A DNA stretch of 64,000 bases, from the IMG/VR virus record IMGVR_UViG_3300043467_001216. The stretch is one strand, 5' to 3'. Numbering within the stretch: position 1 is the first letter of the stretch; every line of letters begins with the position of its first letter. This DNA is from a virus. Taxonomy: Duplodnaviria > Heunggongvirae > Uroviricota > Caudoviricetes. Both the position numbers and the translations under genes were made by a program. Positions 11,179-62,076 of this stretch are shown here, piece after piece. The notes beneath the pieces are model-generated. The model searched no databases. It saw only the letters and a list, made by a program, of their open reading frames with translations, and had not been told where the DNA came from.

Positions 11179-11967
11179 TTGATAAACCAAAACGATAGAG
11201 ATATGAGAAACACAGTTATGACATTAGACCAAGTAAAAGAAGTAGCACCATCAGTATTCGCTACAAGTGCATCACCAAAAGTATCTAACAGATACACATT
11301 CGTTCCAACCGTGGACATCGTAGAGAACTTCCAAAGAGAGGGATGGGAGATTGCAAGTGTTAAACAAACAGGTAAAGGTGTTCACGGATTACACGAAATC
11401 AAATTCCGTAATGGTGAGTTACCAAAAGTTGGTGACACATTGGTTGAGGCTATCGTTAAGAACTCACACAATGGTATGGCAACATTAAATATCTCCGCAG
11501 GACTACACAGATTGGTATGTGCTAACGGATTGACTGTCCCAACTTCATTGTCTGAGTCATTCAAAGTAAGACACACAGGTTTCGAGTTAGACGACGTTAA
11601 ACGTTTGACTGAGGACTTCTCAAAAAGATTACCATTAATCGAAGGGTCAGTGAACCGAATGATGGAGAGAGAGTTATCAACTGACGAGAAGTTGGACTTC
11701 GTTAGAAAATCCGCTGAGCTTCGTTGGAAAACAGGTTCAATTCCTGTGACATTGGACTACGAGGAAATCTTGAATCCATTGAGAGATGCTGACAACGGGG
11801 ATTCACTTTGGCAAGTATTCAACGTGGTTCAAGAGAAGTGGGTTAGAGGAGGTATCCAATACAAATCTAACGGTGGTCGTAAAACACAACTTAGAACGTT
11901 GAACGACATCTTGAACACCAACCGAATCAACACAAAACTTTGGGAGTTGGCTGAGGAAATGTTCTAA
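11179..11967 (+). CDS. DUF932-like phage/plasmid protein
   Basis: N-terminal VAPSVFATSASPKVSNRYTFVPTVDIVE resembles the DUF932/TIGR03299 signature. Confidence 0.4.
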   Translation: MINQNDRDMRNTVMTLDQVKEVAPSVFATSASPKVSNRYTFVPTVDIVENFQREGWEIASVKQTGKGVHGLHEIKFRNGELPKVGDTLVEAIVKNSHNGMATLNISAGLHRLVCANGLTVPTSLSESFKVRHTGFELDDVKRLTEDFSKRLPLIEGSVNRMMERELSTDEKLDFVRKSAELRWKTGSIPVTLDYEEILNPLRDADNGDSLWQVFNVVQEKWVRGGIQYKSNGGRKTQLRTLNDILNTNRINTKLWELAEEMF

Positions 11968-18870: not shown

Positions 18871-20751
18871 ATGGCTAATCAAAAAGTCCCCCAATTACCC
18901 GTATTAACCGCTATCACAGGTAGTGATTTATTTTACGTTGTTGACGTTAGTGATATAACGGATGACCCAACGGGTAGTTCCAAACAGATTACAAGAGACG
19001 AAATATTAACAAGTGTTAATCAAATAGATTTTAACTTAACTGCCGTAACAACACACGAGGAAGGTCGAGTTTCTTGGAATGATGATATTAAATCATTAGA
19101 AATTGATACTGAAAACCCTGAAGTTCAAGTCCAAGTAGGACACGAAATGGTTATTAGAGTTAACAATCAAACAGGTTCTATTTTAACTAAAGGGACTGTT
19201 GTGTATATCAACGGTGCTCAAGGTCAAAGACCTACAGTGACTAAGGCGGATTATAGTGCTGATACGTCATCAGCGTCAGTTATTGGTTTAGTTGCAGCTG
19301 ACATAAATAATGGTGATAATGGTTATGTTATCACATCAGGAATTCTTGAAGGTGTCAACACAATTGATTATACGGCAGGAACATCATTATATTTGTTCAC
19401 AGGTGGGACGTATTCCTCAAATAAACCGCAAGCCCCTGACCACGATGTTCGTATTGGTAAAGTGGTTGTGTCAAACGCAACTACGGGTTCTATATATGTT
19501 AATGTTCAGAATGGTTATGAACTAGATGAATTGCACGACGTTAGAATCACAAGTGTGTCTGAGAATGATGTCTTGGTTCGTAGTACCTATAACGGTTCAC
19601 CTGTTTGGGTGAATACTAAAACAATTTCAGGTCTTACATATGTGCAGGCGACAACAATATCTGCAACGACATATCAAAATTTACCACCTGACTTATGGAC
19701 TCAGAATGGTAGTAGTATATACTATAATGGTGGGAATGTTGGTATTGGTCAAAGTAACCCAACTAGAAAGTTTGAGGTTGTAGATGGTGCTAGTTTAGCT
19801 TATTTTAACTTAACTGGTACAAGTGGACCAGCAGCTGTTATTAGTACTACAGACCTTACAAAATTAACTAGATTTATTGCAACTGATGGGACTAATTCAA
19901 TAAATATTGGTATTAGAACATCTGGTGAAACTGATAATCCTACTGTTGGTGGACAAGGTGATGCATTTATTTATGTTAATGCAAGTGCTAAGGGTTTAAG
20001 TATTGTTAATGCACCTTTTACAGGTATTAATAATGATTATATTAGATTATATGCGGGTTTACTTGCGACTCAAGGTATATCACATTTACACGTGCAAGGT
20101 TCTGGAACTACTAAAGGGTTTATCGGAATAAATAATGAAAATCCTATTGCACGACTACATGTAAGTGGTGATACACTCATAGATGGTGTTTTATCAGCGA
20201 CAACAATATCAGCAACAACCGCATCAATATCAGGTTCAGGTCAAAATGTTTTAACTGTTACAGGTTCAGGTAATAGTACCTCATCACCAATATTTAAAGT
20301 TATTGGTTCACAAGGAGAATTGTTTAGTGTTACTGATTCATTAACAGGTTTATTACAAAGTGTTAATAATATCTCAGGTTTACCAATTTGGCAAGTATAT
20401 TCTGATAATACCATATTAATGGGAACGTATTTAGCACCTTCGTTAAACACGACCGTTAGGGTATCATTAACTGCTGGAACTAATACTGTCTATTCAATAC
20501 CGACAAGTGCCTATACAGGTGGTTTCTTTGATTATACTGTGATTAGTAGTGGAGGTGCGGGAGCTAGAGCGGGAACTGTTATGTCTATATGGAGTGGTAC
20601 TACGGCTGAATACACTGATGTATCAACTAATGATATTGGTAATACATCGGGGATATCATTTTCAGTTGCGGTTTCCGGTGGTAATTCAGTGTTAAGTTGT
20701 TCCGCAACTACTACGGGTTGGATATTAAAAACTATAGTTAGAAGTATATGA
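18871..20751 (+). CDS. putative tail fibre / receptor-binding structural protein
   Basis: 626 aa, Ser/Thr/Gly/Asn-rich and beta-rich. Repeated TISATT(YQNLP) motifs are shared with ORF 22515..22985. Confidence 0.55.
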   Translation: MANQKVPQLPVLTAITGSDLFYVVDVSDITDDPTGSSKQITRDEILTSVNQIDFNLTAVTTHEEGRVSWNDDIKSLEIDTENPEVQVQVGHEMVIRVNNQTGSILTKGTVVYINGAQGQRPTVTKADYSADTSSASVIGLVAADINNGDNGYVITSGILEGVNTIDYTAGTSLYLFTGGTYSSNKPQAPDHDVRIGKVVVSNATTGSIYVNVQNGYELDELHDVRITSVSENDVLVRSTYNGSPVWVNTKTISGLTYVQATTISATTYQNLPPDLWTQNGSSIYYNGGNVGIGQSNPTRKFEVVDGASLAYFNLTGTSGPAAVISTTDLTKLTRFIATDGTNSINIGIRTSGETDNPTVGGQGDAFIYVNASAKGLSIVNAPFTGINNDYIRLYAGLLATQGISHLHVQGSGTTKGFIGINNENPIARLHVSGDTLIDGVLSATTISATTASISGSGQNVLTVTGSGNSTSSPIFKVIGSQGELFSVTDSLTGLLQSVNNISGLPIWQVYSDNTILMGTYLAPSLNTTVRVSLTAGTNTVYSIPTSAYTGGFFDYTVISSGGAGARAGTVMSIWSGTTAEYTDVSTNDIGNTSGISFSVAVSGGNSVLSCSATTTGWILKTIVRSI

Positions 20752-21476
20752 GTACACATTATAAACCAAGGATTATTACTGATAATTTAATTTATTATGT
20801 TGACGGTGCTAATACCTCATCATACCCTGGAACAGGAACTATTTGTGATGATTTATCACGTCGTCAATTATTAGAACTGTCTTTAGTTAATGGGGTTGCA
20901 TTTGAAAATAATAATGGTGGTGTTTTTACATTTGATGGTGTTGATGACTTAATGTTATCTGATGTTACGATGAACGGTAAAATGACTAGTGGTATGACAT
21001 TTGATGTTTGGTTTAAACGAACTCAAGATATGAACGCATTTAATATGGTGGTTTCAAATCCGGTTCCTTATATTGCGTTTAGAGGTTCGGGTGCGGGTGT
21101 TAACTCTCAATATTTTTTATTTTCATTTTTAACTAGAATATCTTCAACTAATACGCAACGTTATTTATATTCTAATAATACGTTTAGTAATAATGTTTGG
21201 TATAATGTTGTTTGTACGTTATCTCAAAATACGACAACACAAGTGGTTGATGCTAAAATGTATGTTAATGGTGAATTAAACAATACTATAAGTGTTGGTT
21301 CGGCAACTGATAGTGTGTATCAACCCACTGCTGGGACTTTTTTTAGATTGGCGAATTACGCTCCAGCGGCATATCCGTTTAAAGGTAATATTTCGTCAGT
21401 TAAAATGTATGATAAATTACTAACGTCTGATGAAATTTTACAAAATTATAATACATTAAAAAATAGATTTAATTAA
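20748..21476 (+). CDS. LamG/concanavalin-like domain protein (paralog A)
   Basis: Paralogous to 21502..22185, with a shared C-terminal ..DEI(L/N)QNYN(T/A)(L/T)K.R.. and FDG(V/I)DD motifs. Composition suggests a lectin-like beta-sandwich. Confidence 0.45.
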   Translation: MSTHYKPRIITDNLIYYVDGANTSSYPGTGTICDDLSRRQLLELSLVNGVAFENNNGGVFTFDGVDDLMLSDVTMNGKMTSGMTFDVWFKRTQDMNAFNMVVSNPVPYIAFRGSGAGVNSQYFLFSFLTRISSTNTQRYLYSNNTFSNNVWYNVVCTLSQNTTTQVVDAKMYVNGELNNTISVGSATDSVYQPTAGTFFRLANYAPAAYPFKGNISSVKMYDKLLTSDEILQNYNTLKNRFN

Positions 21477-21501
21477 ATATAAAAAAAATAGTTAGAATTG
21501 T

Positions 21502-22185
21502 ATGAGTTCATTTTCAGGTCCAAAAATAGATATTAATAACCTTGTGTTGTATTTAGATGCGGGAAACTCTGATTCTTATGTTAGTGGTTCTACCACATGG
21601 TATGATTTAAGTGGTAATAATTATAATGGTACGTTAATTAATGGTACGGGTTTTAGTAGTGAAAAAAATGGTTGTATGACATTTGATGGTATTGACGATA
21701 TGGTTAGAACAAATTTTCAAACAATAACTGTAAATAGTAGTTTTGAGATATGGGCTAATAGAACTGAGAGTGTCAACGCATATAATATGATGGCTGGTAT
21801 GTATCTACCTTATTTTGCTATGAATAGTGGTAATACTTTACACTTTTCTAATTCAATAGGTGGTGTTCAAAGAAGTGCTTTTTCTTCACCATCAGGAACT
21901 TTAATGGATAATACTTGGTATTGTTTTCATTTTGTAAATTCATATGATGGTGTTAATACAACAATGAAATCGTATATTAACGGCACTTTAGTTCGTAGTA
22001 TTACTAATACAGGTCAAACGATTACAACAACTTTTCTTCCTCTAGTTATTGGTGGTTGGAGGTCTAATTTACCAACTGATTATCCATTTAAAGGTAAAAT
22101 ATCAATTGTTAAGGTTTATAATAAAGAATTAACACAAGATGAAATTAATCAAAACTATAATGCAACAAAAGGTAGATATTTATAA
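21502..22185 (+). CDS. LamG/concanavalin-like domain protein (paralog B)
   Basis: See paralog A. Confidence 0.45.
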   Translation: MSSFSGPKIDINNLVLYLDAGNSDSYVSGSTTWYDLSGNNYNGTLINGTGFSSEKNGCMTFDGIDDMVRTNFQTITVNSSFEIWANRTESVNAYNMMAGMYLPYFAMNSGNTLHFSNSIGGVQRSAFSSPSGTLMDNTWYCFHFVNSYDGVNTTMKSYINGTLVRSITNTGQTITTTFLPLVIGGWRSNLPTDYPFKGKISIVKVYNKELTQDEINQNYNATKGRYL

Positions 22186-23618: not shown

Positions 23619-24539
23619 ATGATAGATACTTTTAACATAAATGACGGTAGTTTAAACAACCAAGTGTTCAACTATAATGGGAATACAGGGTGGCAAGTAT
23701 GGAACAAACCACCTAAATGTAATTTAGTGAATTTCTTTTTAGTTGGTGGTGGTGCCGGTGGTCAAGGTGGTATTATTAATTCTGCCGCCAATCGTAATGG
23801 AGGTGCGGGAGGTGGTTCTGCCGCCTTTTCATATATAACCGTTCCAGCATTTGCAATTCCCGATACTTTATATATATTAGTGGCAAGTGGTGGAACAGGA
23901 GGTGCGTCAAGTGGTGGTGCCGGTGGTCAAGGAAGTCTTAGTTATGTCTGTTCTGTACCTGATACGTCAACTGTTAATAATATATTAATGAGGAGTGGTT
24001 CGGCGAATGCGGGTGTTACAACAACAACAACTGCGGGTGCGGCAATTACTGTTGCGGATATTTTATTAGCTGAGGCTGCGTTTATTTCAGGATATGCGGG
24101 TCAAACAGGTGGTGCGGGTGGTGTAACAAGTACTCCTGCGGTTGATATAACACCAACAGGTATTCCATTCACATCAGGTGCGGGTGGTGCTGGATGTGGT
24201 TCGACAGGAACGTTAGGTGTTGCGGGGGATATCGTAGGTATTTTAGATTTCCCAATTATCTCAGGTGGTACAAATACATCATCGGCAGGTGCGACTGCGG
24301 GTTCGGGAAATAACGGATTTTCGACAAGAGAAAGTTTTACTAGCCAAAATTATAAATATCCTATGTTCTTTACAGGAGGTGCCGGTGGTGGTGCAGCCTC
24401 TAACGCAACAGGTGTTGGAGGACGTGGTGGTGATGGAGCCTATGGTTGTGGTGGAGGAGGTGGTGGTGCCGGTGGAAACACAACTGCGGGACGTGGTGGT
24501 GATGGTGGTCACGGATTAGTTATAATTACAGTTACATAA
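23619..24539 (+). CDS. glycine-rich protein, tandem paralog 1
   Basis: Conserved N-terminus MIDTFNINDGS..QVF...WNKP..C..V.F.L.GGG and conserved C-terminus AYGCGGGGGGAG..GGDG..VIIT. The Gly-rich middle is highly variable. Confidence 0.55.
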   Translation: MIDTFNINDGSLNNQVFNYNGNTGWQVWNKPPKCNLVNFFLVGGGAGGQGGIINSAANRNGGAGGGSAAFSYITVPAFAIPDTLYILVASGGTGGASSGGAGGQGSLSYVCSVPDTSTVNNILMRSGSANAGVTTTTTAGAAITVADILLAEAAFISGYAGQTGGAGGVTSTPAVDITPTGIPFTSGAGGAGCGSTGTLGVAGDIVGILDFPIISGGTNTSSAGATAGSGNNGFSTRESFTSQNYKYPMFFTGGAGGGAASNATGVGGRGGDGAYGCGGGGGGAGGNTTAGRGGDGGHGLVIITVT

Positions 24540-24542
24540 AAT

Positions 24543-25487
24543 ATGATAGATACTTTTCACATATCAGATGGTAGTGTCAATAGACAAGTGTTCTATGCGA
24601 CAGGACCGAATACCTTCCAAACTTGGAATAAACCCCAAAACTGTAAATTCGTTTACTTCGTATTAATCGGAGGTGGCGGAGGTGGCGGAGGTGGTCAAAG
24701 TGGTGGAACAGGAACCTCTCGTAGAGGTGGTGGTTCAGGTGGTTCAGGTGGATTAACTAAAGGTATGTTTCCCTCTTCAATTATTCCTGATAGATTATAT
24801 ATTCAAGTTGGTTCAGGTGGAACTGCTGGTGTTGGTGGTACGACTAACAGTGATGGTGGTACTGCTGGTATATCATATGTTATGGTTACACCTGACACTA
24901 CTGAAACTGCACAAAATATACTACTACAAAGTAGTTTGGCGGCTGCGGGTGGTGGTCGTTCAGGTTTAAATGGTGGTGCTCTTGGTGCTGCTGCAACGGC
25001 TTGGGTATTCACTAATAATATTTTTTATAAATTTGGGTTGGTTGATACTTATGCGGGTCAAGCGGGTGTTTTAGGTCAAACAACGGCATTACCAACTAAC
25101 TTAACAATTAGTGGTATTGTAAGTGGTGGTGGTCCAGGTGCGGGTCAAAACGGTGCAACTGCACAAGAGGGTGGTTCAGTTGTTGGTGGTGGGTCAATAC
25201 CTACAATGACAGGAGGACCAGCGGGTGGTTCAGCGACATCAACAACACCCGGAGGTAATGGTAGTGGTGGATATATGACATTTACCCCTAACACACTTGG
25301 ATACACAACAGAACCATTGATATTTATCGGTGGTGCTGGTGGTGGTTCATCAGATGGTGGACCCGGAGGTTCAGGAGCTGGCGGAGCCTATGGTTGTGGT
25401 GGTGGAGGAGGTGGAGCCGGAATAACTAACCAAGGTGGTAATGGTGGTAAAGGTGGTGACGGAATAGTCATAATAACGTGGTGGTAA
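24543..25487 (+). CDS. glycine-rich protein, tandem paralog 2
   Basis: Same architecture as paralog 1. Ends GGDGIVIITWW. Confidence 0.55.
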   Translation: MIDTFHISDGSVNRQVFYATGPNTFQTWNKPQNCKFVYFVLIGGGGGGGGGQSGGTGTSRRGGGSGGSGGLTKGMFPSSIIPDRLYIQVGSGGTAGVGGTTNSDGGTAGISYVMVTPDTTETAQNILLQSSLAAAGGGRSGLNGGALGAAATAWVFTNNIFYKFGLVDTYAGQAGVLGQTTALPTNLTISGIVSGGGPGAGQNGATAQEGGSVVGGGSIPTMTGGPAGGSATSTTPGGNGSGGYMTFTPNTLGYTTEPLIFIGGAGGGSSDGGPGGSGAGGAYGCGGGGGGAGITNQGGNGGKGGDGIVIITWW

Positions 25488-25496
25488 TATTATAAA

Positions 25497-26459
25497 ATGA
25501 TAGATACATTCAATTTACCTGGAAAGGAAAGGTATACACAAATTTTTACAGTAAACTCAAGTGGGTCAACAGGTTGGGAAACTTGGAATAAACCATCAAA
25601 CATTTCTTACATCCATATTTTATGTATTGGTGGTGGAGGAGGTGGAGGAGGGGCTCGTGGTAGTTCGCTGAATACCGCAACAGGAGGAGGTGGTGGAGGT
25701 TCTGCAGCTCACTCAATTGGATTATTTCCTGCGGTTTTATTACCTGATACATTATTCGTTCAGGTGGGTAAAGGAGGTGCTAGTGGTGTTGGTGGTGCTA
25801 AGGGTGTTAACGGAACTGATGGTGGTTCGGGAGAACATTCTTATGTGTCAGTTATACCATCAACGGGAACTACTGCGGTATTGATGAAAAACGGTACTGC
25901 GGGTGCTGATGGTGGTAATGGTGGACAAAGTTCAGTTCAAGGTGCTGCGGGAACTGCGGGAACAACTTGGACTTATAACACAACATTTATATTTCCCCAA
26001 TTAGGACAGATATCACCATTTGCTGGTCAAAATGGTGGTATCGGTGGTTCAACAGGTGGTGGTAATGGTGGTTCGATAACTATTACAGGTCCAACAACAG
26101 GTGGTGGTGGTGGAGGTGGAACAACAAGTGGTGGCTCATCAGGTGGTGGTGGTTCAATTACGGGTGTTGGGATAATACCAACTATTGTTGGTGGAACTGC
26201 GAATTCATTAACGGCTAGTAATGGTGCGGGTGGTTATGGTATGAATTTATTAACAACTGAATCAAGTTCACCAAGTCCTTTATTTTTTACGGGAGCTGCG
26301 GGTGGTGGTGGTGCTGGTCCAAATGCTGATAGAGAAGGTGGTGACGGAGGTCACGCTGCTTACGGTTCAGGAGGTGGAGGTGGAGGTGCATCTTATAATG
26401 GTAAAGGTGGTGACGGAGGTAAAGGTGGTGATGGTGTTGTAATTATTACTTGTTGGTAG
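25497..26459 (+). CDS. glycine-rich protein, tandem paralog 3
   Basis: Same architecture. Ends GGDGVVIITCW. Confidence 0.55.
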   Translation: MIDTFNLPGKERYTQIFTVNSSGSTGWETWNKPSNISYIHILCIGGGGGGGGARGSSLNTATGGGGGGSAAHSIGLFPAVLLPDTLFVQVGKGGASGVGGAKGVNGTDGGSGEHSYVSVIPSTGTTAVLMKNGTAGADGGNGGQSSVQGAAGTAGTTWTYNTTFIFPQLGQISPFAGQNGGIGGSTGGGNGGSITITGPTTGGGGGGGTTSGGSSGGGGSITGVGIIPTIVGGTANSLTASNGAGGYGMNLLTTESSSPSPLFFTGAAGGGGAGPNADREGGDGGHAAYGSGGGGGGASYNGKGGDGGKGGDGVVIITCW

Positions 26460-27403: not shown

Positions 27404-28477
27404 ATGAGCCATTATATTATTAATAAACACGAATTTAAAGACGTTGTTAATAAAATTTACTTAGAAGAACAAAAAAACATTTTAAATGAGAAATGGTCTA
27501 AATTAAGTAAAGGGGAAAAAATATTCGTATTAGAATTTCTAAAAGTCATATATCCTGATAAATCTAAATTAATACAAGAATCTAAATGGTATAATACTTT
27601 AGGTGATATTGCCGGTATTTTTGACCCTACAGGTGTGATTGATGTTATCAACGGTATTAGTTATTGGAGACAAGATGATAAGTTATTTGCGTTACTGTCT
27701 TGGATTTCTGTAGTACCATTAATCGGTGACGTGATTGGTAAACCTGTTATTGGTGCATTAAAATTAGGTGGTGATACTGCTAAAATGTTTAAAGCCGCAG
27801 CTCTTGCGGGTGATGCTGCTAAAGTTGCTGAAACTGCAACTAAATCAGGTGGAGCTATTGGTAAATTTGTTAGTACTTCACCTACTTGGGGTGTTAAATT
27901 ATTAGAAATTTTAAAAAATGCGGGAAACAAAGTTCCAATACTAAGACGAATGTTTAAGTTAATTGAGGAATATGTTTCAGTGTTTGTAACCGCTAGTAAA
28001 GAAATGAAACTTGGTGCTGAGGTAACCAAAGGTATCGGTCTTGCGGAAAAGGAAACGTTAAAAAATACTTTTAGAGGGTTTAGAGATTTTGGTGGGTTTA
28101 AAAATAAATACCTCAAGTACATTTCATCTAAGGACGTATCACTCTGGAAAAAATTCACTGCGGGAGCACCACGAATATTTGGTGGTAATCCGGCTACTAG
28201 GTCATTAATGAGAAGAACTAAATGGTATTTAGGGTTTCTTGATTTCTTAGGTATTGGTGATTTTAAAACAACACCTGATGAATTAATGATTAAGTATCCG
28301 AATATAGAACAACAAGTTAATAAGTATAATCAAACTGAAAAGGCTCAACAAACATGGAATCAAGATTTTGGTTCAGGTGGTGATACACAAACCCAACAAA
28401 CAGATGGTGGGTTAAATACTCAAGATATTATGGGTATAAACCCGTTAGAAGTTTTTTTAAATCCTTTGTTTAAATAA
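27404..28477 (+). CDS. hypothetical protein
   Basis: 357-aa ORF. The antisense ORFs inside it are judged spurious. Confidence 0.5.
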   Translation: MSHYIINKHEFKDVVNKIYLEEQKNILNEKWSKLSKGEKIFVLEFLKVIYPDKSKLIQESKWYNTLGDIAGIFDPTGVIDVINGISYWRQDDKLFALLSWISVVPLIGDVIGKPVIGALKLGGDTAKMFKAAALAGDAAKVAETATKSGGAIGKFVSTSPTWGVKLLEILKNAGNKVPILRRMFKLIEEYVSVFVTASKEMKLGAEVTKGIGLAEKETLKNTFRGFRDFGGFKNKYLKYISSKDVSLWKKFTAGAPRIFGGNPATRSLMRRTKWYLGFLDFLGIGDFKTTPDELMIKYPNIEQQVNKYNQTEKAQQTWNQDFGSGGDTQTQQTDGGLNTQDIMGINPLEVFLNPLFK

Positions 28478-29922
28478 TGAAAAAAATAGTAAGATTAAAT
28501 GAGAATCAAATGACCGATGTCATTAAACGAATGATAATGGAGTCAGGGATTCGTGATATTAATAAAATCGCTGAGAGATATCGAAAAGCTAAAATTTATT
28601 TTCATCAAGATTTGGATGGTGTAACAACTGCGATTGCGATGAAAGAATATTTAAAACAATATGGGATTGAAACCGTTGATTGTGAGGTAATACAATACGG
28701 TGATAAAGAATGGTCGATTAAAAAACCTGAAGGTAGTGGTGATGTTATGCCTGTATTGGTTGACTTTGCTCACGGTAAACCAATGTTTGTTATTCACACA
28801 GACCACCACGACACACAAGCGGGTGTTGAATCAGGGACTGCAACAAACTTTAAATCATCACGTTCAAATGTTGAAACTATATCACAATCAATATCACCAA
28901 AAGAATTATTCCCAAGTGATGATTTGTTATTAATCTCGACGGTTGACTCGGCGAATTTTGCACCAAACGATATCACAGTTGATGAGGTTAATAATTACAT
29001 CTTCAACTTAGATAAAGAAAAATCAGTTCCAAAAAACAAAATGGCTCTTGGTTTGACGATTAATAAATTATTATTGGCGTTTAAAAACAAACCTGATTTC
29101 TTAGAAGAATTGGTTATGGAATCAACACCATCTTTACTTAATATCTTAACTAACATTAAGAGAATTATGAAAGAGAAGGGGTTTGCGTCAGTTGATGTTC
29201 TACAACAAAATAGAGACAACTACGTTCAATCAATGAAGAATCATCCTAACGTTAAAGTTATGGATAATATCATTGTTCAATACGGTGGTGGTAATATGAT
29301 GAAACCTGGTTCTTATGATAGGTATACACCATTTAAAAACAATCCTGAAGCTGACTTTATAGTTATTGCTTGGCCGTTGGGGTTAGTTCAAGCGTCTTGT
29401 AATCCATTCAAAAAAGAGAGAGCATTGAAAGGTGTTAACTTAGGTGAGGTTAAAGATGAGGTGTTATCTAAATGGGAAACACAATTAAAACAAAAAGAAA
29501 TTCCATTATCTACAATCAAATGGGTATCTGAGAACAAATTAAATACTGAGTCAGTTGGTTTTACGTTTAAAGATTTTGAAGCATTGTATGGTGAAAAATT
29601 TAGTAAGATTAACAACGGACCTGAATTATTAAACATTATTAGTAATATAATGCAAAGACATTATAATAGTTTAAGTGATAAACAAAAATCTATTATGGAG
29701 AAAGTAACTGTTAGTGCTTGGGATATAATTCAAGCTAATAGTGGTGGACACAAATGTATTACGAATATATCAGGTCTTAGTTATTTAGGTAAGAACCCTC
29801 AGAAATTATCAGGAGGTGGAAGTTACCAAAAAAGTGAAGATGATTCACCATCGGTTAAGTTTACAAAAATGATTCAAAACGAATTTGTAAGAGTATTACA
29901 ACAAAAAATACAAGAAGGTTAA
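28477..29922 (+). CDS. hypothetical protein (481 aa)
   Basis: ORF abutting the upstream stop. Confidence 0.5.
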   Translation: MKKIVRLNENQMTDVIKRMIMESGIRDINKIAERYRKAKIYFHQDLDGVTTAIAMKEYLKQYGIETVDCEVIQYGDKEWSIKKPEGSGDVMPVLVDFAHGKPMFVIHTDHHDTQAGVESGTATNFKSSRSNVETISQSISPKELFPSDDLLLISTVDSANFAPNDITVDEVNNYIFNLDKEKSVPKNKMALGLTINKLLLAFKNKPDFLEELVMESTPSLLNILTNIKRIMKEKGFASVDVLQQNRDNYVQSMKNHPNVKVMDNIIVQYGGGNMMKPGSYDRYTPFKNNPEADFIVIAWPLGLVQASCNPFKKERALKGVNLGEVKDEVLSKWETQLKQKEIPLSTIKWVSENKLNTESVGFTFKDFEALYGEKFSKINNGPELLNIISNIMQRHYNSLSDKQKSIMEKVTVSAWDIIQANSGGHKCITNISGLSYLGKNPQKLSGGGSYQKSEDDSPSVKFTKMIQNEFVRVLQQKIQEG

Positions 29923-30260
29923 AATTCTATTCGGTCGTCAAGTTTAATACCTAAACGTTTGCATGTACCACCTTTAACTTCTAAAATCATATCACCTTCA
30001 CCACAATAGTTTCCACAATCTTTTGATTTACAAGGGGGACAATTGTGGTGGATGTTTGATATCATACCATCTTTAATAAAGATTATATCCAAAGGTATCA
30101 CACAATTTTTCATCCAAAAACAATGGTCGGCATCATCCATTAAAAATAACATACCTTGATTTGGTGATGTAAACTTTTTTCCCATCATACCGTTTGATTT
30201 ATCCTTGGGGGTAATCATAGTTTTTACTACAAACTTGTTATTATTAATTCGAATATTCAT
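29919..30260 (-). CDS. DUF192-like protein with a Cys-rich C-terminal extension
   Basis: GMMGKKF...MLFLM...IPLDIIFI resembles DUF192 (COG1430). The C-terminus has CPPCKSKDCGNYCGEGD. Confidence 0.45.
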   Translation of the reverse strand: MNIRINNNKFVVKTMITPKDKSNGMMGKKFTSPNQGMLFLMDDADHCFWMKNCVIPLDIIFIKDGMISNIHHNCPPCKSKDCGNYCGEGDMILEVKGGTCKRLGIKLDDRIEF

Positions 30261-30307: not shown

Positions 30308-30742
30308 ATGAAATCGAGAGTGAATATAGTTAACAAGAAAGTTAAGTTTGAATACTTTTTCGTTGAGACATTTGTCGTTGGGGTTAAACTACAGGGTTCT
30401 GAGGTTAAGTCAATCAGTGACTCAAAAGTTTCAATGACTGATACGTATTGTTACTTTAAGAATGGTGAGTTATATGTTAAAGGGTTAAACATTGCTAGTT
30501 CTAATGTGTCATACGCTCACGAACCTATGAGGGAACGTAAATTGTTAATGAAGAAGAAAGAATTGCGTAAACTTGAGAACGAATTAATTAATGGGTTAAC
30601 GATTGTTCCGTATAGATTGTATCGTAATGAGACCGGGTTGATTAAGATGGAGATTGTATTAGCCAAAGGTAAGAAGTTGTGGGATAAGAGAGATTCGATT
30701 AAAGAACGAGATATAAATAGAGAATTAAAACGAGGTCTATGA
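30308..30742 (+). CDS. smpB: SsrA-binding protein SmpB
   Basis: Aligns along its whole length with bacterial SmpB: NKK.KFEYF..E....G..L.GSEVKS, NI....A...P.R.RKLL....EL.KL, LT.VP..LY......K.E..LAKGKK..DKR.SIKERD. 144 aa. Confidence 0.85.
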   Translation: MKSRVNIVNKKVKFEYFFVETFVVGVKLQGSEVKSISDSKVSMTDTYCYFKNGELYVKGLNIASSNVSYAHEPMRERKLLMKKKELRKLENELINGLTIVPYRLYRNETGLIKMEIVLAKGKKLWDKRDSIKERDINRELKRGL

Positions 30743-59564: not shown

Positions 59565-59831
59565 ATGGAAATTACACGCTTCGACAGACACGAATCAATG
59601 AACGATGAAACTCGTTCTGAAATCTTACAAGTAATTAGAACGTTATCATTTAGTGATGAGTCGTCTTTTAAACTTGAAAATTACTTATACGGTTTGTTCG
59701 ATGGGTATGATTACACACCATTCATCTTAAACTCTGAGGACTTCAAGAACATTAAGGACAAAGAGTTGACTGATAGAGTTACAAAAATCTTGGATGAGGT
59801 TAACAAATATCCAAGAGTGGTTTATAAATAA
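59565..59831 (+). CDS. hypothetical protein
   Basis: ORF downstream of a TATATTTG motif. Confidence 0.35.
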   Translation: MEITRFDRHESMNDETRSEILQVIRTLSFSDESSFKLENYLYGLFDGYDYTPFILNSEDFKNIKDKELTDRVTKILDEVNKYPRVVYK

Positions 59832-59925
59832 ATTATTGTGTTGTTCCCTTGAGAAAGGAACTAGGGTAAAAACGGAGCATAGGAAGGGTGAAGATTGCTA
59901 CAACACAGAGGCTCTCAACCTCAAA

Positions 59926-60012
59926 TAGTCAGGTAATGCGTAATGGGAAAACGGTTATCTCATCCAACTAAAAAGGGTTGCATCGTTGTGGGTTCGAGTC
60001 CCACCCTGGCTA
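59926..60012 (+). tRNA. tRNA-like element 0 (T-arm GTGGGTTCGAGTCCCAC; 7-bp acceptor AGTCAGG/CCTGGCT with one G-U)
   Basis: Perfect T-arm and pairing termini. I could not fold the D and anticodon arms canonically by eye. 87 nt. Confidence 0.4.
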
Positions 60013-60271
60013 CAACTTCGCTGGTTAATGGGGGTAGTTTGCATCTTGCAACTCAAGTGGTTAAGTTCGGCGTTAAGATATTAATCCTACTATGGTGATT
60101 GATTGAAATGTACGGCTCACACCAACCTCTGCAAGTTAAAACAAACTGTACTACACATTCAAAGATGGGTTACACAATAGAATTTATTCTATAAGATGCT
60201 GTGTCAAATTGAGATATGTGTAAGTATAACATCTGAAGTTTGCCTCAATGGTATTTTTAGTAAGATGTATT

Positions 60272-60371
60272 TAGTCAGGTGGCGTAATGGTAAAAGCGTT
60301 GGTCAGTGGGTTTAAACACCTAACGGTAAAAATGGGTACCAGATATACAGGTTCGAATCCTGTCCTGACTA
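60272..60371 (+). tRNA. tRNA-like element 1 (Leu-type D-arm; shared termini AGTCAGGTGGCG ... ACAGGTTCGAATCCTGTCCTGACT); 100 nt
   Basis: Acceptor AGTCAGG/CCTGACT (7 bp). T-arm ACAGG-TTCGAAT-CCTGT. D-arm GCG-TAATGGTAAAAG-CGT. The interior is longer than a class II tRNA. Confidence 0.45.
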
Positions 60372-60441
60372 CTGACAATAAAACTTTGGGGTCAGGGTTT
60401 TGTTGGCACTGAAAGGTGTGTGTTTTCAACGGTTCGAGTCC

Positions 60442-60553
60442 GAGTCAGGTGGCGGAATTGGTAGACGCTAACGGTGGTAAGTGTGATAGTCAGAGCTCGG
60501 GAACTCCTATCAAAAAGTTTGGTTCACACATACAGGTTCAAGTCCTGTCCTGA
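60442..60553 (+). tRNA. tRNA-like element 2 (D-arm GGTGGCGGAATTGGTAGACGC identical to canonical tRNA-Leu); 112 nt
   Basis: Same termini as element 1. The 63-nt region between the D- and T-arms includes a long hairpin GTGTGA...TCACAC. No canonical anticodon arm found by eye. Confidence 0.45.
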
Positions 60554-60569
60554 CTACTAAAAATAAGAT

Positions 60570-60800
60570 ATGAATAATAGAGAACAAAAATTGATTGATT
60601 TAATGTTTGAAATGGTGTTAGTGACAACAAACGACCCCGTATTTTGTAAAAGACCAAGAGGTGAAAGAATGGCTTGGGTTGCAGATAATTTGAGGGGTTC
60701 GGGATTTGATACACATCCAATCGGAATGAGTTGGGGGGTTTTGGTTGACTCTTCATTCAGGGACACAATTGATGTTAAAACAGAAAATTTAGATAATTAA
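60570..60800 (+). CDS. small hypothetical protein embedded in the tRNA-like island
   Basis: 76-aa ORF between tRNA-like elements 2 and 3. The antisense ORFs 60538..60766 are judged spurious. Confidence 0.25.
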   Translation: MNNREQKLIDLMFEMVLVTTNDPVFCKRPRGERMAWVADNLRGSGFDTHPIGMSWGVLVDSSFRDTIDVKTENLDN

Positions 60801-60805
60801 CTAAC

Positions 60806-60949
60806 AGTCAGGTGGTGGAATGGTAGACGTGTAATGGGTGATTTGATTAATGGGGCCGTGAGACATCACATTAAATATGTTGACCATCCCCAAGAACCGA
60901 ATAAAATCGGTCTTTTCAAATCGTACAGGTTCGAATCCTGTCCTGACTG
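60806..60949 (+). tRNA. tRNA-like element 3; 144 nt, with internal direct repeat TAATGGG
   Basis: Same termini (AGTCAGGTGGTGGAATGGTAGACG ... ACAGGTTCGAATCCTGTCCTGACT). Very long interior. Confidence 0.4.
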
Positions 60950-61119
60950 CTGAATTAGCCCTCTGGTGGTGCACCGCTAAGGAACGAAGATAGAGATTAC
61001 AGATATGGGTTGAAATAAAAAGACCTTCGGGTTTACACATATGTTGGCGTGGACGCTCTCCGAATCGTATGTCGGCATAGTTTGTGTGTTCTAGGGATAA
61101 TTTAAAAACACACATTTTT

Positions 61120-61232
61120 AGTCAGGTGGCGGAAGGGATTGAGGTAACTCGGTCGTTGGTAGACGCACATATCCATACAGGGATGATGCAGTACTGTATT
61201 ACTGTGTCTTACAAGTTCGAATCTTGTCCTGA
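61120..61232 (+). tRNA. tRNA-like element 4; 113 nt, with a ~22-nt insertion inside the D-loop
   Basis: GGTGGCGGAA-[GGGATTGAGGTAACTCGGTCG]-TTGGTAGACGC. T-arm ACAAG-TTCGAAT-CTTGT, where compensatory changes keep the stem paired. Acceptor AGTCAGG/CCTGACT. Confidence 0.4.
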
Positions 61233-61296
61233 CTACAAAAAATAACGAAGGTATTGTTTAATTAAATAAAAAAACATATCTTTGAAATGTTAATAT

Positions 61297-61412
61297 AGAT
61301 AGGTGGCGGATGGGTAGACGCAGAGGTGAGGGGATATAGTAACACTCTGAAAGTAGCAGTCTCGTTACGTCCTACGGTGAAATCGAACAGGTTCGAATCC
61401 TGTCCTATCTAC
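61297..61412 (+). tRNA. tRNA-like element 5; 116 nt, acceptor AGATAGG/CCTATCT
   Basis: D-arm GCG-GATGGGTAGA-CGC. T-arm ACAGG-TTCGAAT-CCTGT. Acceptor changed at two base pairs with full compensation. Confidence 0.45.
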
Positions 61413-61460
61413 ACTATAATGAATTTGGGTAACGATTTAGATACAAGAATTCATATAGTT

Positions 61461-61530
61461 AAGCGGAGTAGTGTAATTGGTAACATATTGGATTGTCTCC
61501 TTTGATGTGGGTTCGAGTCCCATCGCCGCA
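61461..61530 (+). tRNA. candidate tRNA (T-arm GTGGGTTCGAGTCCCAT, D-loop AATTGGTAAC)
   Basis: tRNA-like D- and T-loops. The acceptor pairing is imperfect by eye and the isotype is undetermined. Confidence 0.35.
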
Positions 61531-61545
61531 ACTAAAATTTAAATT

Positions 61546-62076
61546 ATGAAAACAGTTCTTACATTCTTATTATTACTTGCGTTTAATACATTCGCACAGG
61601 ACGTTACAGTATTGGGTAGAATCTATATTGATACGGCAGTTATGTCACCAACTGAGTATACAACTTGTGATACAACAAAGACACTCAGAATTATGACTGA
61701 TAACGACCTTTCAAATATTGCCTCAGATAGGTTATCCAAAATGTATAGTTTATCTAACGATTATGATAATGAATTTTTAAATGGGGGGTTTGATTTCTGT
61801 AAAAAAGTTGCGGTAGATTCAAGTAAGAATATATTACTAATCTATGTTGATGTTAGTAATAGTTACAAGATAGATGCTATTGAAGCTATTATGGAATATG
61901 TTGATGAAGATAAAGTATTACATAAAGACATTAAAGAACTAACACCTAAAATGATTTACACAAATTATTTCCAAGTGTTTACAAGTACCTCTAAACGTGA
62001 ACACGTTGTGGTTACGTTAGTGTTACCTAATGATGAAAATAAAAAGTATTACTACATAGATACTATACCTGAATAA
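61546..62076 (+). CDS. secreted hypothetical protein
   Basis: Signal peptide MKTVLTFLLLLAFNTFAQD. Confidence 0.45.
   Translation: MKTVLTFLLLLAFNTFAQDVTVLGRIYIDTAVMSPTEYTTCDTTKTLRIMTDNDLSNIASDRLSKMYSLSNDYDNEFLNGGFDFCKKVAVDSSKNILLIYVDVSNSYKIDAIEAIMEYVDEDKVLHKDIKELTPKMIYTNYFQVFTSTSKREHVVVTLVLPNDENKKYYYIDTIPE

What the first reader, a model, noticed from the sequence alone, without database searches (positions are those of the whole stretch)
59926..61530. Island of tRNA-like elements with identical termini and divergent, oversized interiors
The 1.7-kb segment contains one small ORF and at least seven elements with tRNA acceptor/T-arm architecture. Five of them (60272, 60442, 60806, 61120, 61297) share almost the same 5' block AGTCAGGTGGCGGAATTGGTAGACGC, which is the canonical tRNA-Leu D-arm. 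They also share the same 3' block ACAGGTTCGAATCCTGTCCTGACT. Their interiors are 45-95 nt and unrelated to one another. Total lengths of 100-144 nt exceed even class II tRNAs. Element 4 carries a ~22-nt insertion inside the D-loop. Element 5 has two fully compensated acceptor base-pair changes (AGATAGG/CCTATCT). Element 4 has compensated T-stem changes (ACAAG/CTTGT). This means the stems are under selection to pair. I could not place a canonical 5-7-5 anticodon arm in any of them. Several interpretations fit what I see. They could be tRNA genes carrying short, non-group-I insertions. They could be a family of RNase P/RNase Z-processable minihelix scaffolds (acceptor plus T-arm) that deliver variable small RNAs. 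They could be degenerate copies of one tRNA-Leu. Or one of them could be a disguised tmRNA-like RNA, given that a phage smpB lies at 30.3 kb. The spacer regions 60013-60271 and 60950-61119 are also ORF-free and contain hairpins (TTGCATCTTGCAA, GACC-TTCG-GGTT).
Basis: seen in the sequence. Interest (0 to 1): 0.8.

Follow-up and report, generated by a model that had tools for sequence, protein, structure and literature searches.

The report
Phage tRNA-scaffold RNAs with swappable cargo
This stretch of a giant phage genome encodes six small RNAs built on one tRNA-leucine-like frame whose anticodon part is replaced by unrelated structured inserts, and the same design recurs in hundreds of copies in uncultivated phages without, as far as I could find, having been described.

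Summary
Five + strand elements (plus a sixth, divergent one) share a tRNA-Leu-type acceptor stem, D arm and T arm but have unrelated 45-95 nt interiors and no anticodon arm. It is one array of a large family. The exact 3' block occurs in at least 120 IMG/VR contigs. I extracted about 245 distinct elements whose interiors fall into about 185 unrelated groups.

Elements always lie in phage tRNA gene clusters, on the tRNA strand. They carry the same leader and trailer signature as the true tRNAs beside them (T at -1, C after the discriminator, no encoded CCA). Relatives found through their interiors keep the cargo nearly unchanged while flanks are unrelated. Their scaffold helices change only by compensatory substitutions (element 2: 5 of 7 acceptor pairs).

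Between close relatives the arrays are reshuffled, with break points inside the scaffold repeats.

Best reading: tRNA-processed, tRNA-scaffolded small RNAs with exchangeable cargo. The frame retains every E. coli-type leucine identity element.

Intron-bearing tRNA, pseudogene and tmRNA readings fail. No Rfam family or paper covers them. T4 RNA C is the nearest known analogue. Cargo function and expression remain untested.

The parts
59927..60012 (+). Element 0: divergent family member. Acceptor AGTCAGG/CCTGGCT, T arm GTGGG-TTCGAGT-CCCAC, and a D region that is not Leu-like.
   Evidence: Sequence. Acceptor and T arm form in the MFE fold. The cargo ends match L002, L038 and L064, which carry the standard ACAGG/CCTGT T arm; that is three pairs compensated on both sides.
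60273..60371 (+). Element 1 (99 nt). The scaffold is followed by a 5-bp closing stem (TTGGT/ACCAG) enclosing a 34-nt loop in place of the 7-nt anticodon loop.
   Evidence: Rfam tRNA scores 49.5 bits with 33 nt skipped. Orthologues L188-L191 have a 47-nt interior that is 100% identical, while D arm, T arm and flanks differ.
60372..60442 (+). Conserved 71-nt spacer between elements 1 and 2: a long hairpin, a GAAA hairpin and a 3-bp T-loop-like hairpin. It would be released by the two flanking tRNA-type cuts.
   Evidence: Fold. The same unit occurs after different elements in L081 and L192.
60443..60556 (+). Element 2 (114 nt), with a full tRNA-Leu D arm (GGCGGAATTGGTAGACGC).
   Evidence: Orthologue L200 has the same cargo on acceptor GATTGAG/CTCAATC: 5 of 7 pairs are changed on both sides and all remain paired.
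60570..60800 (+). 76-aa ORF inside the array. It is a passenger gene, not a partner of the elements.
   Evidence: No Pfam match. It has 68 homologues of about 76 aa. It lies between elements in L144-L147, L152, L159 and L160 but among ordinary genes in L162-L166.
60806..60949 (+). Element 3 (144 nt, discriminator G), the largest cargo.
   Evidence: z = -2.4. No relative was found. The element after the conserved ORF differs in every relative.
61120..61235 (+). Element 4 (116 nt). The cargo forms two hairpins. An extra hairpin, GGATTGAG-GTAA-CTCGGTC, sits in the D loop at 61136-61154. T stem ACAAG/CTTGT.
   Evidence: Fold z = -2.7. The L192 orthologue is about 95% identical but carries a different hairpin at the same D-loop site. 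The 19-nt hairpin recurs in tmRNA genes and elsewhere.
61297..61411 (+). Element 5 (115 nt), acceptor AGATAGG/CCTATCT.
   Evidence: Orthologues L192-L196 carry the same cargo (one change) on AGTCAGG/CCTGACT. That is two pairs compensated on both sides.
61462..61532 (+). Canonical tRNA-Thr(UGU) closing the array.
   Evidence: ARAGORN. Rfam tRNA 41.9 bits.

Best explanation
The island is an array of genes for small non-coding RNAs built on a tRNA-Leu-derived chassis. The chassis keeps the acceptor stem, D arm, T arm and the tertiary core. The anticodon and variable arms are replaced by an unrelated structured insert ('cargo'). Sometimes a second hairpin sits in the D loop after position 16/17.

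Inferred pathway: the elements are transcribed together with the phage tRNAs. RNase P cuts at the 5' end, the tRNA 3'-end pathway cuts at the 3' end, and CCA is added. Each then accumulates as a stable L-shaped RNA that displays its cargo.

The chassis supplies processing and stability. It probably also supplies recognition by tRNA-binding proteins. It keeps every E. coli-type leucine identity element, so charging by LeuRS is plausible.

The cargo is the specific effector. Most likely it is a protein- or RNA-binding module serving host takeover or anti-defence. The repeated chassis sequences also act as recombination points that reshuffle cargo between and within phage genomes.

Shown here: the family, its genomic context, selection at the RNA level, the tRNA-type flank signature, and shuffling at the scaffold. 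Inferred: transcription, processing, charging and cargo function.
For: Family size:
- The exact 3' block occurs in at least 120 IMG/VR contigs, often several per contig.
- 276 elements (245 distinct) were found in 200 sources.
- 210 sequences fall into 185 interior clusters.

Genomic context:
- 68 of 68 elements with a neighbouring true tRNA are on its strand, and none of the 58 multi-element loci has elements on both strands.

Flank signature, which was not used for detection:
- -1 is T in 78% of elements and 65% of true tRNAs.
- The base after the discriminator is C in 98% and 97%.
- CCA is encoded in 6 of 237 and 14 of 178.

RNA-level selection on the scaffold:
- A D stem is present in 193 of 236 elements against 72 after shuffling, and it covaries (GCG/CGC, GTG/CAC, GCT/AGC, GCA/TGC, ATG/CAT).
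- The A15:U48 pair occurs 184 times and G15:C48 8 times.
- G:U pairs that work only on the + strand are common; G49:U65 occurs in 34 distinct elements.

Cargo-anchored orthologues:
- e1: cargo 100% identical, scaffold and flanks differ.
- e2: 5 acceptor pairs compensated on both sides.
- e5: 2 acceptor pairs compensated on both sides.
- Other ortholog groups: the element is conserved and the flanks are unalignable.
- RNAalifold on one cargo group: 8 of 27 pairs changed on both sides and kept.

Link between oversize and scaffold: in loci found through an ORF rather than the scaffold, 21 of 22 oversized units have the AGTCAGG-type acceptor, and 9 of 10 normal-size tRNAs do not.

Shuffling: the ORF is 82-93% identical in relatives, but the element after it differs each time. 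Homology between the window and L152 or L192 breaks inside scaffold blocks.

Leucine identity: the consensus has A73 (216 of 236), A15:U48, G18G19, the GGTAGA D loop and a TTCGAAT T loop. E. coli tRNA-Leu lacking the anticodon and variable arms is still charged (review PMC9976931).

Cargo is structured: 21 of 81 tetraloops are GNRA.
Against: - There are no expression or RNA-end data of any kind.
- No cargo has a known target or partner.
- No protein family is consistently nearby; the best candidate, DUF932, occurs in 17 of 139 loci.
- Cargo shows no excess antisense matches to the window, to E. coli rRNA or to the phage tRNAs.
- Folding z-scores of e0, e2 and e5 are unremarkable, -0.5 to -1.1.
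- e3 has no relative.
- Most loci were found through the exact 3' block, so scaffold invariance is partly an effect of how they were sampled. L200 and L187 show that other acceptor stems exist.
- Scaffold identity could be kept by recombination rather than by a reader protein.
- Leucine identity rules are known for E. coli, and the host here is unknown.
Confidence: 0.7

Rival explanations
1. The chassis, not the cargo, is the effector. The RNAs would be anticodon-less tRNA-Leu mimics that act through charging: titrating LeuRS or EF-Tu, donating leucine to a non-ribosomal acceptor, or decoying enzymes that attack class II tRNAs. The cargo would only tune this or be tolerated.
For: All E. coli-type leucine identity elements are kept across the family (PMC9976931). 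The scaffold is far more uniform than the acceptor stems of the neighbouring true tRNAs. Phage tRNA clusters can act as anti-defence loci against nucleases that cut class II tRNAs (abstract of PMC13096335).
Against: Individual cargos are conserved more strictly than the scaffold. e1 has 47 of 47 interior bases identical while its D and T arms differ. e2 keeps its cargo on a fully different acceptor stem. Cargo helices covary. One genome carrying six different cargos is not needed for a pure decoy. Anticodon-loop-like hairpins are not enriched; 11 of 61 seven-base loops fit the pattern.
Confidence: 0.15
2. The elements are selfish or purely DNA-level repeats, such as tRNA-derived miniature mobile elements or recombination cassettes, with no function as RNA.
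For: The termini are an inverted repeat. Copies with identical termini sit in unrelated flanks. Arrays are reshuffled at the repeats. GIY-YIG-like endonuclease genes occur nearby in 11 loci.
Against: Strand bias towards the tRNAs is absolute (68 of 68; no mixed arrays). Copies are never seen inside genes. Helices are maintained through G:U pairs that exist only in the + strand RNA. The tertiary 15:48 pair covaries. The tRNA-type leader and trailer signature is kept. No target-site duplications are seen in the alignments.
Confidence: 0.07
3. They are decoding tRNAs (tRNA-Leu or others) interrupted by short introns or carrying giant anticodon or variable arms.
For: Some family members keep a CTTAAG remnant of a tRNA-Leu(UAA) anticodon loop.
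Against: Default ARAGORN calls none of the six and only 52 of 257 in the family, with scattered isotypes and 2- or 4-base 'anticodons'. The proposed introns sit at position 32, and the isotypes contradict the Leu-type frame. Bacterial tRNA introns are group I introns of more than 200 nt (established knowledge), and no Rfam intron or ribozyme matches even at E up to 10. Many members have GNRA hairpins or nothing where the anticodon arm should be.
Confidence: 0.04
4. They are tmRNA-like RNAs that work with the phage SmpB on stalled ribosomes.
For: SmpB is encoded at 30308-30742 (PF01668, E = 1.4e-44). The architecture, acceptor plus T arm with an insert, resembles the tRNA-like domain of tmRNA. 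The D-loop hairpin of e4 also occurs in tmRNA genes. A tmRNA gene sits beside two elements in L065.
Against: Pair 3:70 is U-A, not G:U. There is no tag reading frame. There is no Rfam tmRNA match. ARAGORN finds a tmRNA only as implausible calls at 70% threshold. A full D stem is present, unlike in tmRNA. SmpB lies 30 kb away and is not a consistent neighbour of elements.
Confidence: 0.04
5. They are decaying duplicates of one phage tRNA-Leu gene.
For: The D arm and discriminator are of tRNA-Leu type, and there is no anticodon arm.
Against: Termini and cargo are both under purifying selection while flanks are unalignable. Helices change by compensation. Processing signals are retained. The same cargos occur in different phages.
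Confidence: 0.02

Closest known systems
Phage T4 RNA C (species 1 RNA, rnaC) and RNA D, stable RNAs of the T4 tRNA gene cluster
   Same: They are encoded inside a phage tRNA cluster on the tRNA strand. rnaC ends in a canonical T arm (CCGGG-TTCGAAT-CCCGG) next to a terminal helix formed by the 5' and 3' ends, and has two long internal hairpins where the other arms would be (z = -4.6). Its function is still unknown (PMC3014915; PMC9697503).
   Different: rnaC has no tRNA-type D arm, and its terminal helix is imperfect (two U:U mismatches). rnaD shows no T arm. The T4 pair is a one-off, not a family with one frame and hundreds of cargos. Direct sequence similarity was not tested.
Engineered 'tRNA scaffold' for recombinant RNA expression in E. 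coli (Ponchon and Dardel; see PMC3753655)
   Same: A foreign structured RNA replaces the anticodon arm of a tRNA. The chimera is processed and protected like a tRNA (own knowledge; abstract of PMC3753655 seen).
   Different: That is a laboratory design. Here the same layout appears to have evolved naturally, on a tRNA-Leu frame, with a second insertion site in the D loop.
Bacterial class II tRNA-Leu
   Same: The D arm GGCGGAATTGGTAGACGC, A15:U48, G18G19, T loop TTCGAAT, A73 and a 7-bp acceptor stem. Remnants of a UAA anticodon loop remain in some members.
   Different: There is no 5-bp/7-nt anticodon arm, and lengths run from 54 to 196 nt. The terminal pair is A1:U72. The bona fide tRNA-Leu(UAA) genes in the same loci use other acceptor stems.
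tmRNA tRNA-like domain
   Same: The acceptor stem and T arm are formed by the two ends of the RNA with a large insert between them, and there is no anticodon arm.
   Different: No alanine identity pair, no tag frame, no pseudoknots detected, and a full D stem is present.
Murid gammaherpesvirus 68 tRNA-miRNA-encoding RNAs (TMERs)
   Same: A virus uses a tRNA-like unit and host tRNA processing enzymes to make small non-coding RNAs (own knowledge).
   Different: It is a eukaryotic virus. Its cargo hairpins lie downstream of the tRNA-like unit and are cut off by tRNase Z. Here the cargo lies inside the unit.

Membership tests
Canonical tRNA (class II tRNA-Leu) | 7-bp acceptor stem with a discriminator base | tested here: met
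   All six elements. A73 in 216 of 236 family members.
Canonical tRNA (class II tRNA-Leu) | D arm with G18G19, T arm with a TTCRANY loop, and the 15:48 tertiary pair | tested here: met
   D stem in 193 of 236 against 72 after shuffling. GG in 180 of 193 D loops. TTCGAAT in 192 of 236. A15:U48 in 184 and G15:C48 in 8. Element 0 lacks a Leu-type D arm.
Canonical tRNA (class II tRNA-Leu) | Anticodon arm (5-bp stem, 7-nt loop) at positions 27-43 | tested here: not met
   ARAGORN calls none of the six. Rfam skips 33-53 nt. With introns allowed the calls are inconsistent. Only 52 of 257 family members are called, with mixed isotypes.
Canonical tRNA (class II tRNA-Leu) | Aminoacylation by LeuRS and decoding on the ribosome | not testable with these tools
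   The sequence determinants known for E. coli are present (PMC9976931). Charging itself needs an enzyme assay.
tmRNA | G3:U70 alanine identity pair | tested here: not met
   Pair 3:70 is T-A in AGTCAGG/CCTGACT.
tmRNA | Internal tag reading frame with resume codon, and a match to tmRNA models | tested here: not met
   No Rfam tmRNA match in the window. ARAGORN finds a tmRNA only at 70% threshold, with implausible permuted calls.
T4 RNA C-type stable RNA of phage tRNA clusters | Encoded in a phage tRNA gene cluster on the tRNA strand | tested here: met
   68 of 68 on the same strand. T4 layout.
T4 RNA C-type stable RNA of phage tRNA clusters | Terminal helix plus 3' T arm enclosing non-tRNA hairpins | tested here: met
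   Window elements. T4 rnaC.
T4 RNA C-type stable RNA of phage tRNA clusters | Accumulates as a stable processed RNA in infected cells | not testable with these tools
   Shown for T4 by Northern blot (PMC9697503). No expression data exist for this phage.
T4 RNA C-type stable RNA of phage tRNA clusters | Sequence homology to rnaC or rnaD | not tested
   The window region has no blastn match in 50,697 phage records, T4 included. No dedicated comparison was made.
Group I intron-containing tRNA-Leu | Self-splicing intron of more than 200 nt in the anticodon loop | tested here: not met
   Interiors are 20-140 nt. No Rfam intron match at E up to 10.
Y RNA-like (YrlA) tRNA mimics | Match to RF02553, with the tRNA-like module internal and the 5'/3' ends forming the Ro-binding stem | tested here: not met
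   No match in the window. The only hit was 26 bits (gathering score 69) over true tRNAs in L039. Here the ends form the acceptor stem.

The most novel reading that the evidence does not exclude
Phages have evolved a natural modular 'RNA display' system. A chargeable, anticodon-less tRNA-Leu chassis is matured by the host tRNA machinery. Exchangeable aptamer or decoy modules are plugged into it at two sites, the anticodon/variable region and the D loop. These modules include copies of host RNA hairpins, such as the tmRNA-associated hairpin in element 4. They are traded between phages by recombination in the chassis as an RNA-based counter-defence or host-takeover repertoire. T4 RNA C would be a lone, degenerate representative of this kind, which would give its 50-year-old open function a comparative handle.
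Probability: 0.3. Interest if true: 0.92.

Novelty: new variant of a known kind. Interest (0 to 1): 0.82.

Why it matters
If these are what they appear to be, uncultivated phages (many of them jumbo phages) carry a large, unannotated layer of small RNAs. Standard tRNA finders and Rfam miss them or mislabel them as odd tRNAs.

The design matches the laboratory 'tRNA scaffold' used to express recombinant RNAs. That suggests nature found the same solution for making stable, precisely processed RNAs.

The hundreds of conserved, structured cargos are candidates for RNA aptamers, decoys or regulators that act on host factors. Their turnover between close relatives is typical of arms-race loci.

The family also gives a comparative route to the still unknown role of T4 RNA C and RNA D. 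It raises a directly testable question: are anticodon-less tRNA-Leu frames charged in vivo?

Tried and rejected
- DNA similarity to 50,697 deposited phage genomes: no match.
- Literature: exact-sequence strings and five keyword searches found no description. The 10,006-candidate viral RNA survey mentions only five ARAGORN-overlapping tRNA-like candidates (PMC10690425).
- Rfam at permissive thresholds on the island and on 16 rich loci: only tRNA, tmRNA and a near-threshold freshwater-1 match. Nothing matched the cargos.
- Antisense targets: no complementarity longer than 12 nt to the rest of the window. There was no enrichment over shuffles against E. coli 16S, 23S and 5S or against 178 phage tRNAs.
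- Anticodon-loop mimicry: not enriched.
- Partner protein by neighbourhood: clustering 2306 ORFs from 139 loci gave no cluster in more than 17 loci (DUF932; adjacent to an element in only 3). Terminase and GIY-YIG-like genes are incidental.
- The 76-aa ORF inside the array looked like a partner. It also occurs in ordinary gene context, so this was rejected.
- Host tRNA or attP origin of the 3' block: rejected. There were only 18 hits in 185,579 species genomes, all on MAG contigs.
- Relatives of element 3: none found.
- PHROGs and Pfam on 30 window proteins: no tRNA-processing enzyme apart from SmpB.
Full report
**What is in the window.**
Reading 59700-61800 confirms five + strand elements. 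They lie at 60273-60371, 60443-60556, 60806-60949, 61120-61235 and 61297-61411. Each begins AGTCAGGTGGCGGAAT(T)GGTAGACGC or a close variant. Each ends ACAGGTTCGAATCCTGTCCTGACTA or a close variant. The interiors between these blocks are unrelated to one another.

The two blocks occur only in this island and only on the + strand. Counts are 5 and 4 matches, against 0.00 and 0.03 expected by chance. A sixth, more divergent element lies at 59927-60012. A normal tRNA-Thr(UGU) lies at 61462-61532.

Default ARAGORN calls none of the six elements a tRNA. Rfam's tRNA model aligns to their termini only and skips 33-53 nt. When each element is folded alone, the acceptor stem and T arm appear in every minimum-energy structure. 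The interiors form one to three hairpins. The D-loop insertion of element 4 is a 7-bp hairpin with a GUAA loop (61136-61154).

**It is one array of a large family.**
Several copies per contig are common, for example 7 in 5 kb of L010.

A generic scan for 'acceptor stem plus T arm' units gave the following:
- 257 elements in 145 loci, later 276 elements (245 distinct) in 200 sources.
- Lengths of 54-196 nt with a median of 102. The other units in the same loci, mostly true tRNAs, have a median of 74.
- 185 interior clusters from 210 sequences.

In 185,579 species genomes the 3' block occurs only 18 times, always on contigs of metagenome-assembled genomes. Half of those are binned as Bacteroidota. 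So the block is not a host tRNA or an attachment site.

The window itself comes from a large phage. Identical copies of the region lie on contigs of up to 195 kb. The cargo of element 1 occurs on IMG/VR contigs of 343-373 kb. Most large proteins in the window have no PHROG or Pfam match.

**Context and processing signals.**
Elements sit inside phage tRNA gene clusters. All 68 elements with a non-family tRNA within 1.5 kb share its strand. No locus has elements on both strands.

The flanks were not used for detection, yet they carry the same signature as the true tRNAs of the same loci:

| Feature | Family elements | True tRNAs |
|---|---|---|
| T at -1 | 78% | 65% |
| A at -2 | 65% | 58% |
| A at -4 | 66% | 60% |
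| C after the discriminator | 98% | 97% |
| CCA encoded | 6 of 237 | 14 of 178 |

This is the strongest indirect evidence that the elements pass through the same 5' and 3' maturation and CCA addition as tRNAs.

**Selection acts on the RNA.**
The D stem was never used for detection. It is present in 193 of 236 distinct elements, against 72 after shuffling. It covaries: GCG/CGC, GTG/CAC, GCT/AGC, GCA/TGC, ATG/CAT.

The tertiary 15:48 pair is A:U in 184 elements and G:C in 8. Many helices use G:U pairs that exist only in the + strand transcript; G49:U65 occurs in 34 distinct elements.

In four ortholog groups, the whole element including its interior is conserved while the flanks cannot be aligned. 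RNAalifold on one group finds 8 of 27 pairs changed on both sides and kept, including pairs within the cargo hairpins.

**Relatives of the window's own elements.**
These were searched through interior strings, so the scaffold was not pre-selected.
- Element 1: L188-L191 have an identical 47-nt interior but a different D arm and T arm and unrelated flanks.
- Element 5: L192-L196 carry the same cargo on AGTCAGG/CCTGACT.
- Element 2: L200 carries the same cargo on GATTGAG/CTCAATC, with five of seven pairs changed on both sides.
- Element 0: it shares its cargo ends with L002, L038 and L064, but its T stem is GTGGG/CCCAC rather than ACAGG/CCTGT.
- Element 3: no relative was found.

**The oversized units and the scaffold go together.**
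In loci reached through a protein rather than through the scaffold, 21 of 22 units longer than 92 nt have an acceptor within one mismatch of AGTCAGG. Of 10 units shorter than 78 nt, 9 do not. Other acceptors do exist (L200, L187). The near-invariance seen in the first 120 loci is therefore partly due to how they were found.

**Modular shuffling.**
The 76-aa ORF at 60570-60800 is 82-93% identical in relatives. The element just after its stop codon is different in each of them. Homology between the window and L152 ends about 10 nt into the scaffold of element 3.

L192 comes from a 187-kb contig of a related phage. Its order is: spacer motif, element 5 cargo, right flank of element 3, element 4. 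The window's order is: spacer motif, element 2, ORF, element 3, flank, element 4, then element 5. The break points lie inside scaffold blocks.

The L192 copy of element 4 is about 95% identical to the window's. It carries a different hairpin at the same D-loop site. Hairpins are inserted at that same site in L187, L024, L068 and L103.

The ORF itself also occurs among ordinary genes without any elements. It is therefore a passenger.

**How it most likely works.**
The consensus frame keeps each element shown to specify leucine identity in E. coli: A73, A15:U48, G18G19, A20a and the D-loop/T-loop contacts. [quoted passage not shown]

The layout, a foreign RNA in place of the anticodon arm, is that of the engineered tRNA scaffold for recombinant RNA expression (PMC3753655; own knowledge).

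I therefore commit to tRNA-processed, tRNA-scaffolded small RNAs whose cargo is the effector. The frame gives processing and stability and possibly charging and EF-Tu binding. The repeated frame also serves as a recombination point.

Cargo function is unknown. Cargos are structured, with 21 of 81 tetraloops of GNRA type. They show no excess antisense matches to the window, to rRNA or to tRNAs and no excess of anticodon-like loops. This favours binding modules over base-pairing regulators.

**Rivals.**
Five rival readings were considered; four are contradicted and one is kept as a minority view.
- Intron-bearing tRNAs fail. ARAGORN with introns gives Leu, Tyr and Ala calls with 'introns' at position 32, and no intron family matches.
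- Pseudogenes fail on cargo conservation.
- A tmRNA-like role fails on the 3:70 pair, the absence of a tag frame and the absence of model matches. This holds even though the phage encodes SmpB.
- Purely DNA-level repeats are hard to square with the strand bias, the G:U pairs, tertiary covariation and the flank signature.
- The reading in which the chargeable frame itself is the effector is kept as a minority view.

**Comparison with what is known.**
No Rfam family covers these RNAs. I found no paper describing them.

The nearest known analogue is T4 RNA C. It lies in the T4 tRNA cluster on the tRNA strand. It ends in a canonical T arm beside a terminal helix and holds two long internal hairpins. 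Its role is still unknown (PMC3014915; PMC9697503).

The present family differs from it in three ways. It has a full tRNA-Leu core. It has one shared frame with hundreds of cargos. It shows evident cargo exchange. I rate it a new variant of a known kind.

**Limits.**
- There are no expression data.
- The host is unknown.
- The database scans were capped, so family size and scaffold diversity are lower bounds and are biased by sampling.
- Leucylation is an inference from E. coli rules.

Noticed in passing
window 59832-59925: A conserved structured motif lies directly upstream of the array: TTGTGTTGTTCCCTTGAGAAAGGAA ... variable ... CTACAACACAGAGGYTCTCAACCTCAAA. It occurs in at least 14 other loci, all from tRNA-cluster regions, and twice in L192. 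GTGTTGT/ACAACAC can pair, and the loops UUGAGAA and UUCUCAA are complementary (possible pseudoknot). No Rfam match.
   Followed up: partly
window 60372-60442: The 71-nt spacer between elements 1 and 2 is a conserved unit. It also follows different elements in L081 and L192. It folds into a 13-bp hairpin, a GAAA-loop hairpin and a 3-bp T-loop-like hairpin abutting the next element. tRNA-type cuts on both sides would release it as a discrete RNA.
   Followed up: partly
window 61136-61154; L167-L187: The 19-nt D-loop hairpin of element 4 (GGATTGAGGTAACTCGGTC) occurs exactly in 21 IMG/VR contigs. In two-piece betaproteobacterial-type tmRNA genes it is an insertion relative to the Rfam consensus, just 5' of the tag frame (ANDERFLMAA). 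It also occurs as a hairpin-plus-terminator unit, and in the D loop of a tRNA-like element with another acceptor stem (L187). The tmRNA contigs hold no family elements, so the phage may have copied a host RNA hairpin.
   Followed up: partly
window 30308-30742 (+), with 29919-30260 (-) and 28477-29922 (+): The phage encodes SmpB (PF01668, E = 1.4e-44) next to a DUF192 protein and a weak DHH-like protein. No tmRNA gene lies in the 64-kb window.
   Followed up: partly
L016 4124-4186: A freshwater-1 RNA (RF02979) match of 70.1 bits, just under the gathering score of 72, lies inside a phage tRNA cluster that also holds family elements.
   Followed up: no
window 60950-61119: This ORF-free spacer after element 3 contains a GACC-UUCG-GGUU hairpin. 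It is about 95% identical in L192, where it follows a different element.
   Followed up: no
L152 4523-4927; L153, L154: A YqeY/GatB-like domain protein (PF09424) is encoded right after an element in a relative's array.
   Followed up: no
L002 8896-9702, L095, L118; window 11203-11964: DUF932 genes are the most frequent protein neighbour of the elements (17 of 139 loci). In three loci an element starts 11-13 nt after the stop codon. In the window the DUF932 gene lies far from the array.
   Followed up: partly
window 23619-26459 and 20748-22185: Three tandem paralogues with a glycine-rich domain (PF21722) and two tandem Laminin_G_3 proteins.
   Followed up: no
L148 2550-2640; L152 2695-2770: Units with two T-arm-like hairpins (GGTTCGAATCC twice) in one tRNA-shaped element. 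T-loop hairpins also occur inside several cargos, including L024, L032, L058, L085 and L091.
   Followed up: no
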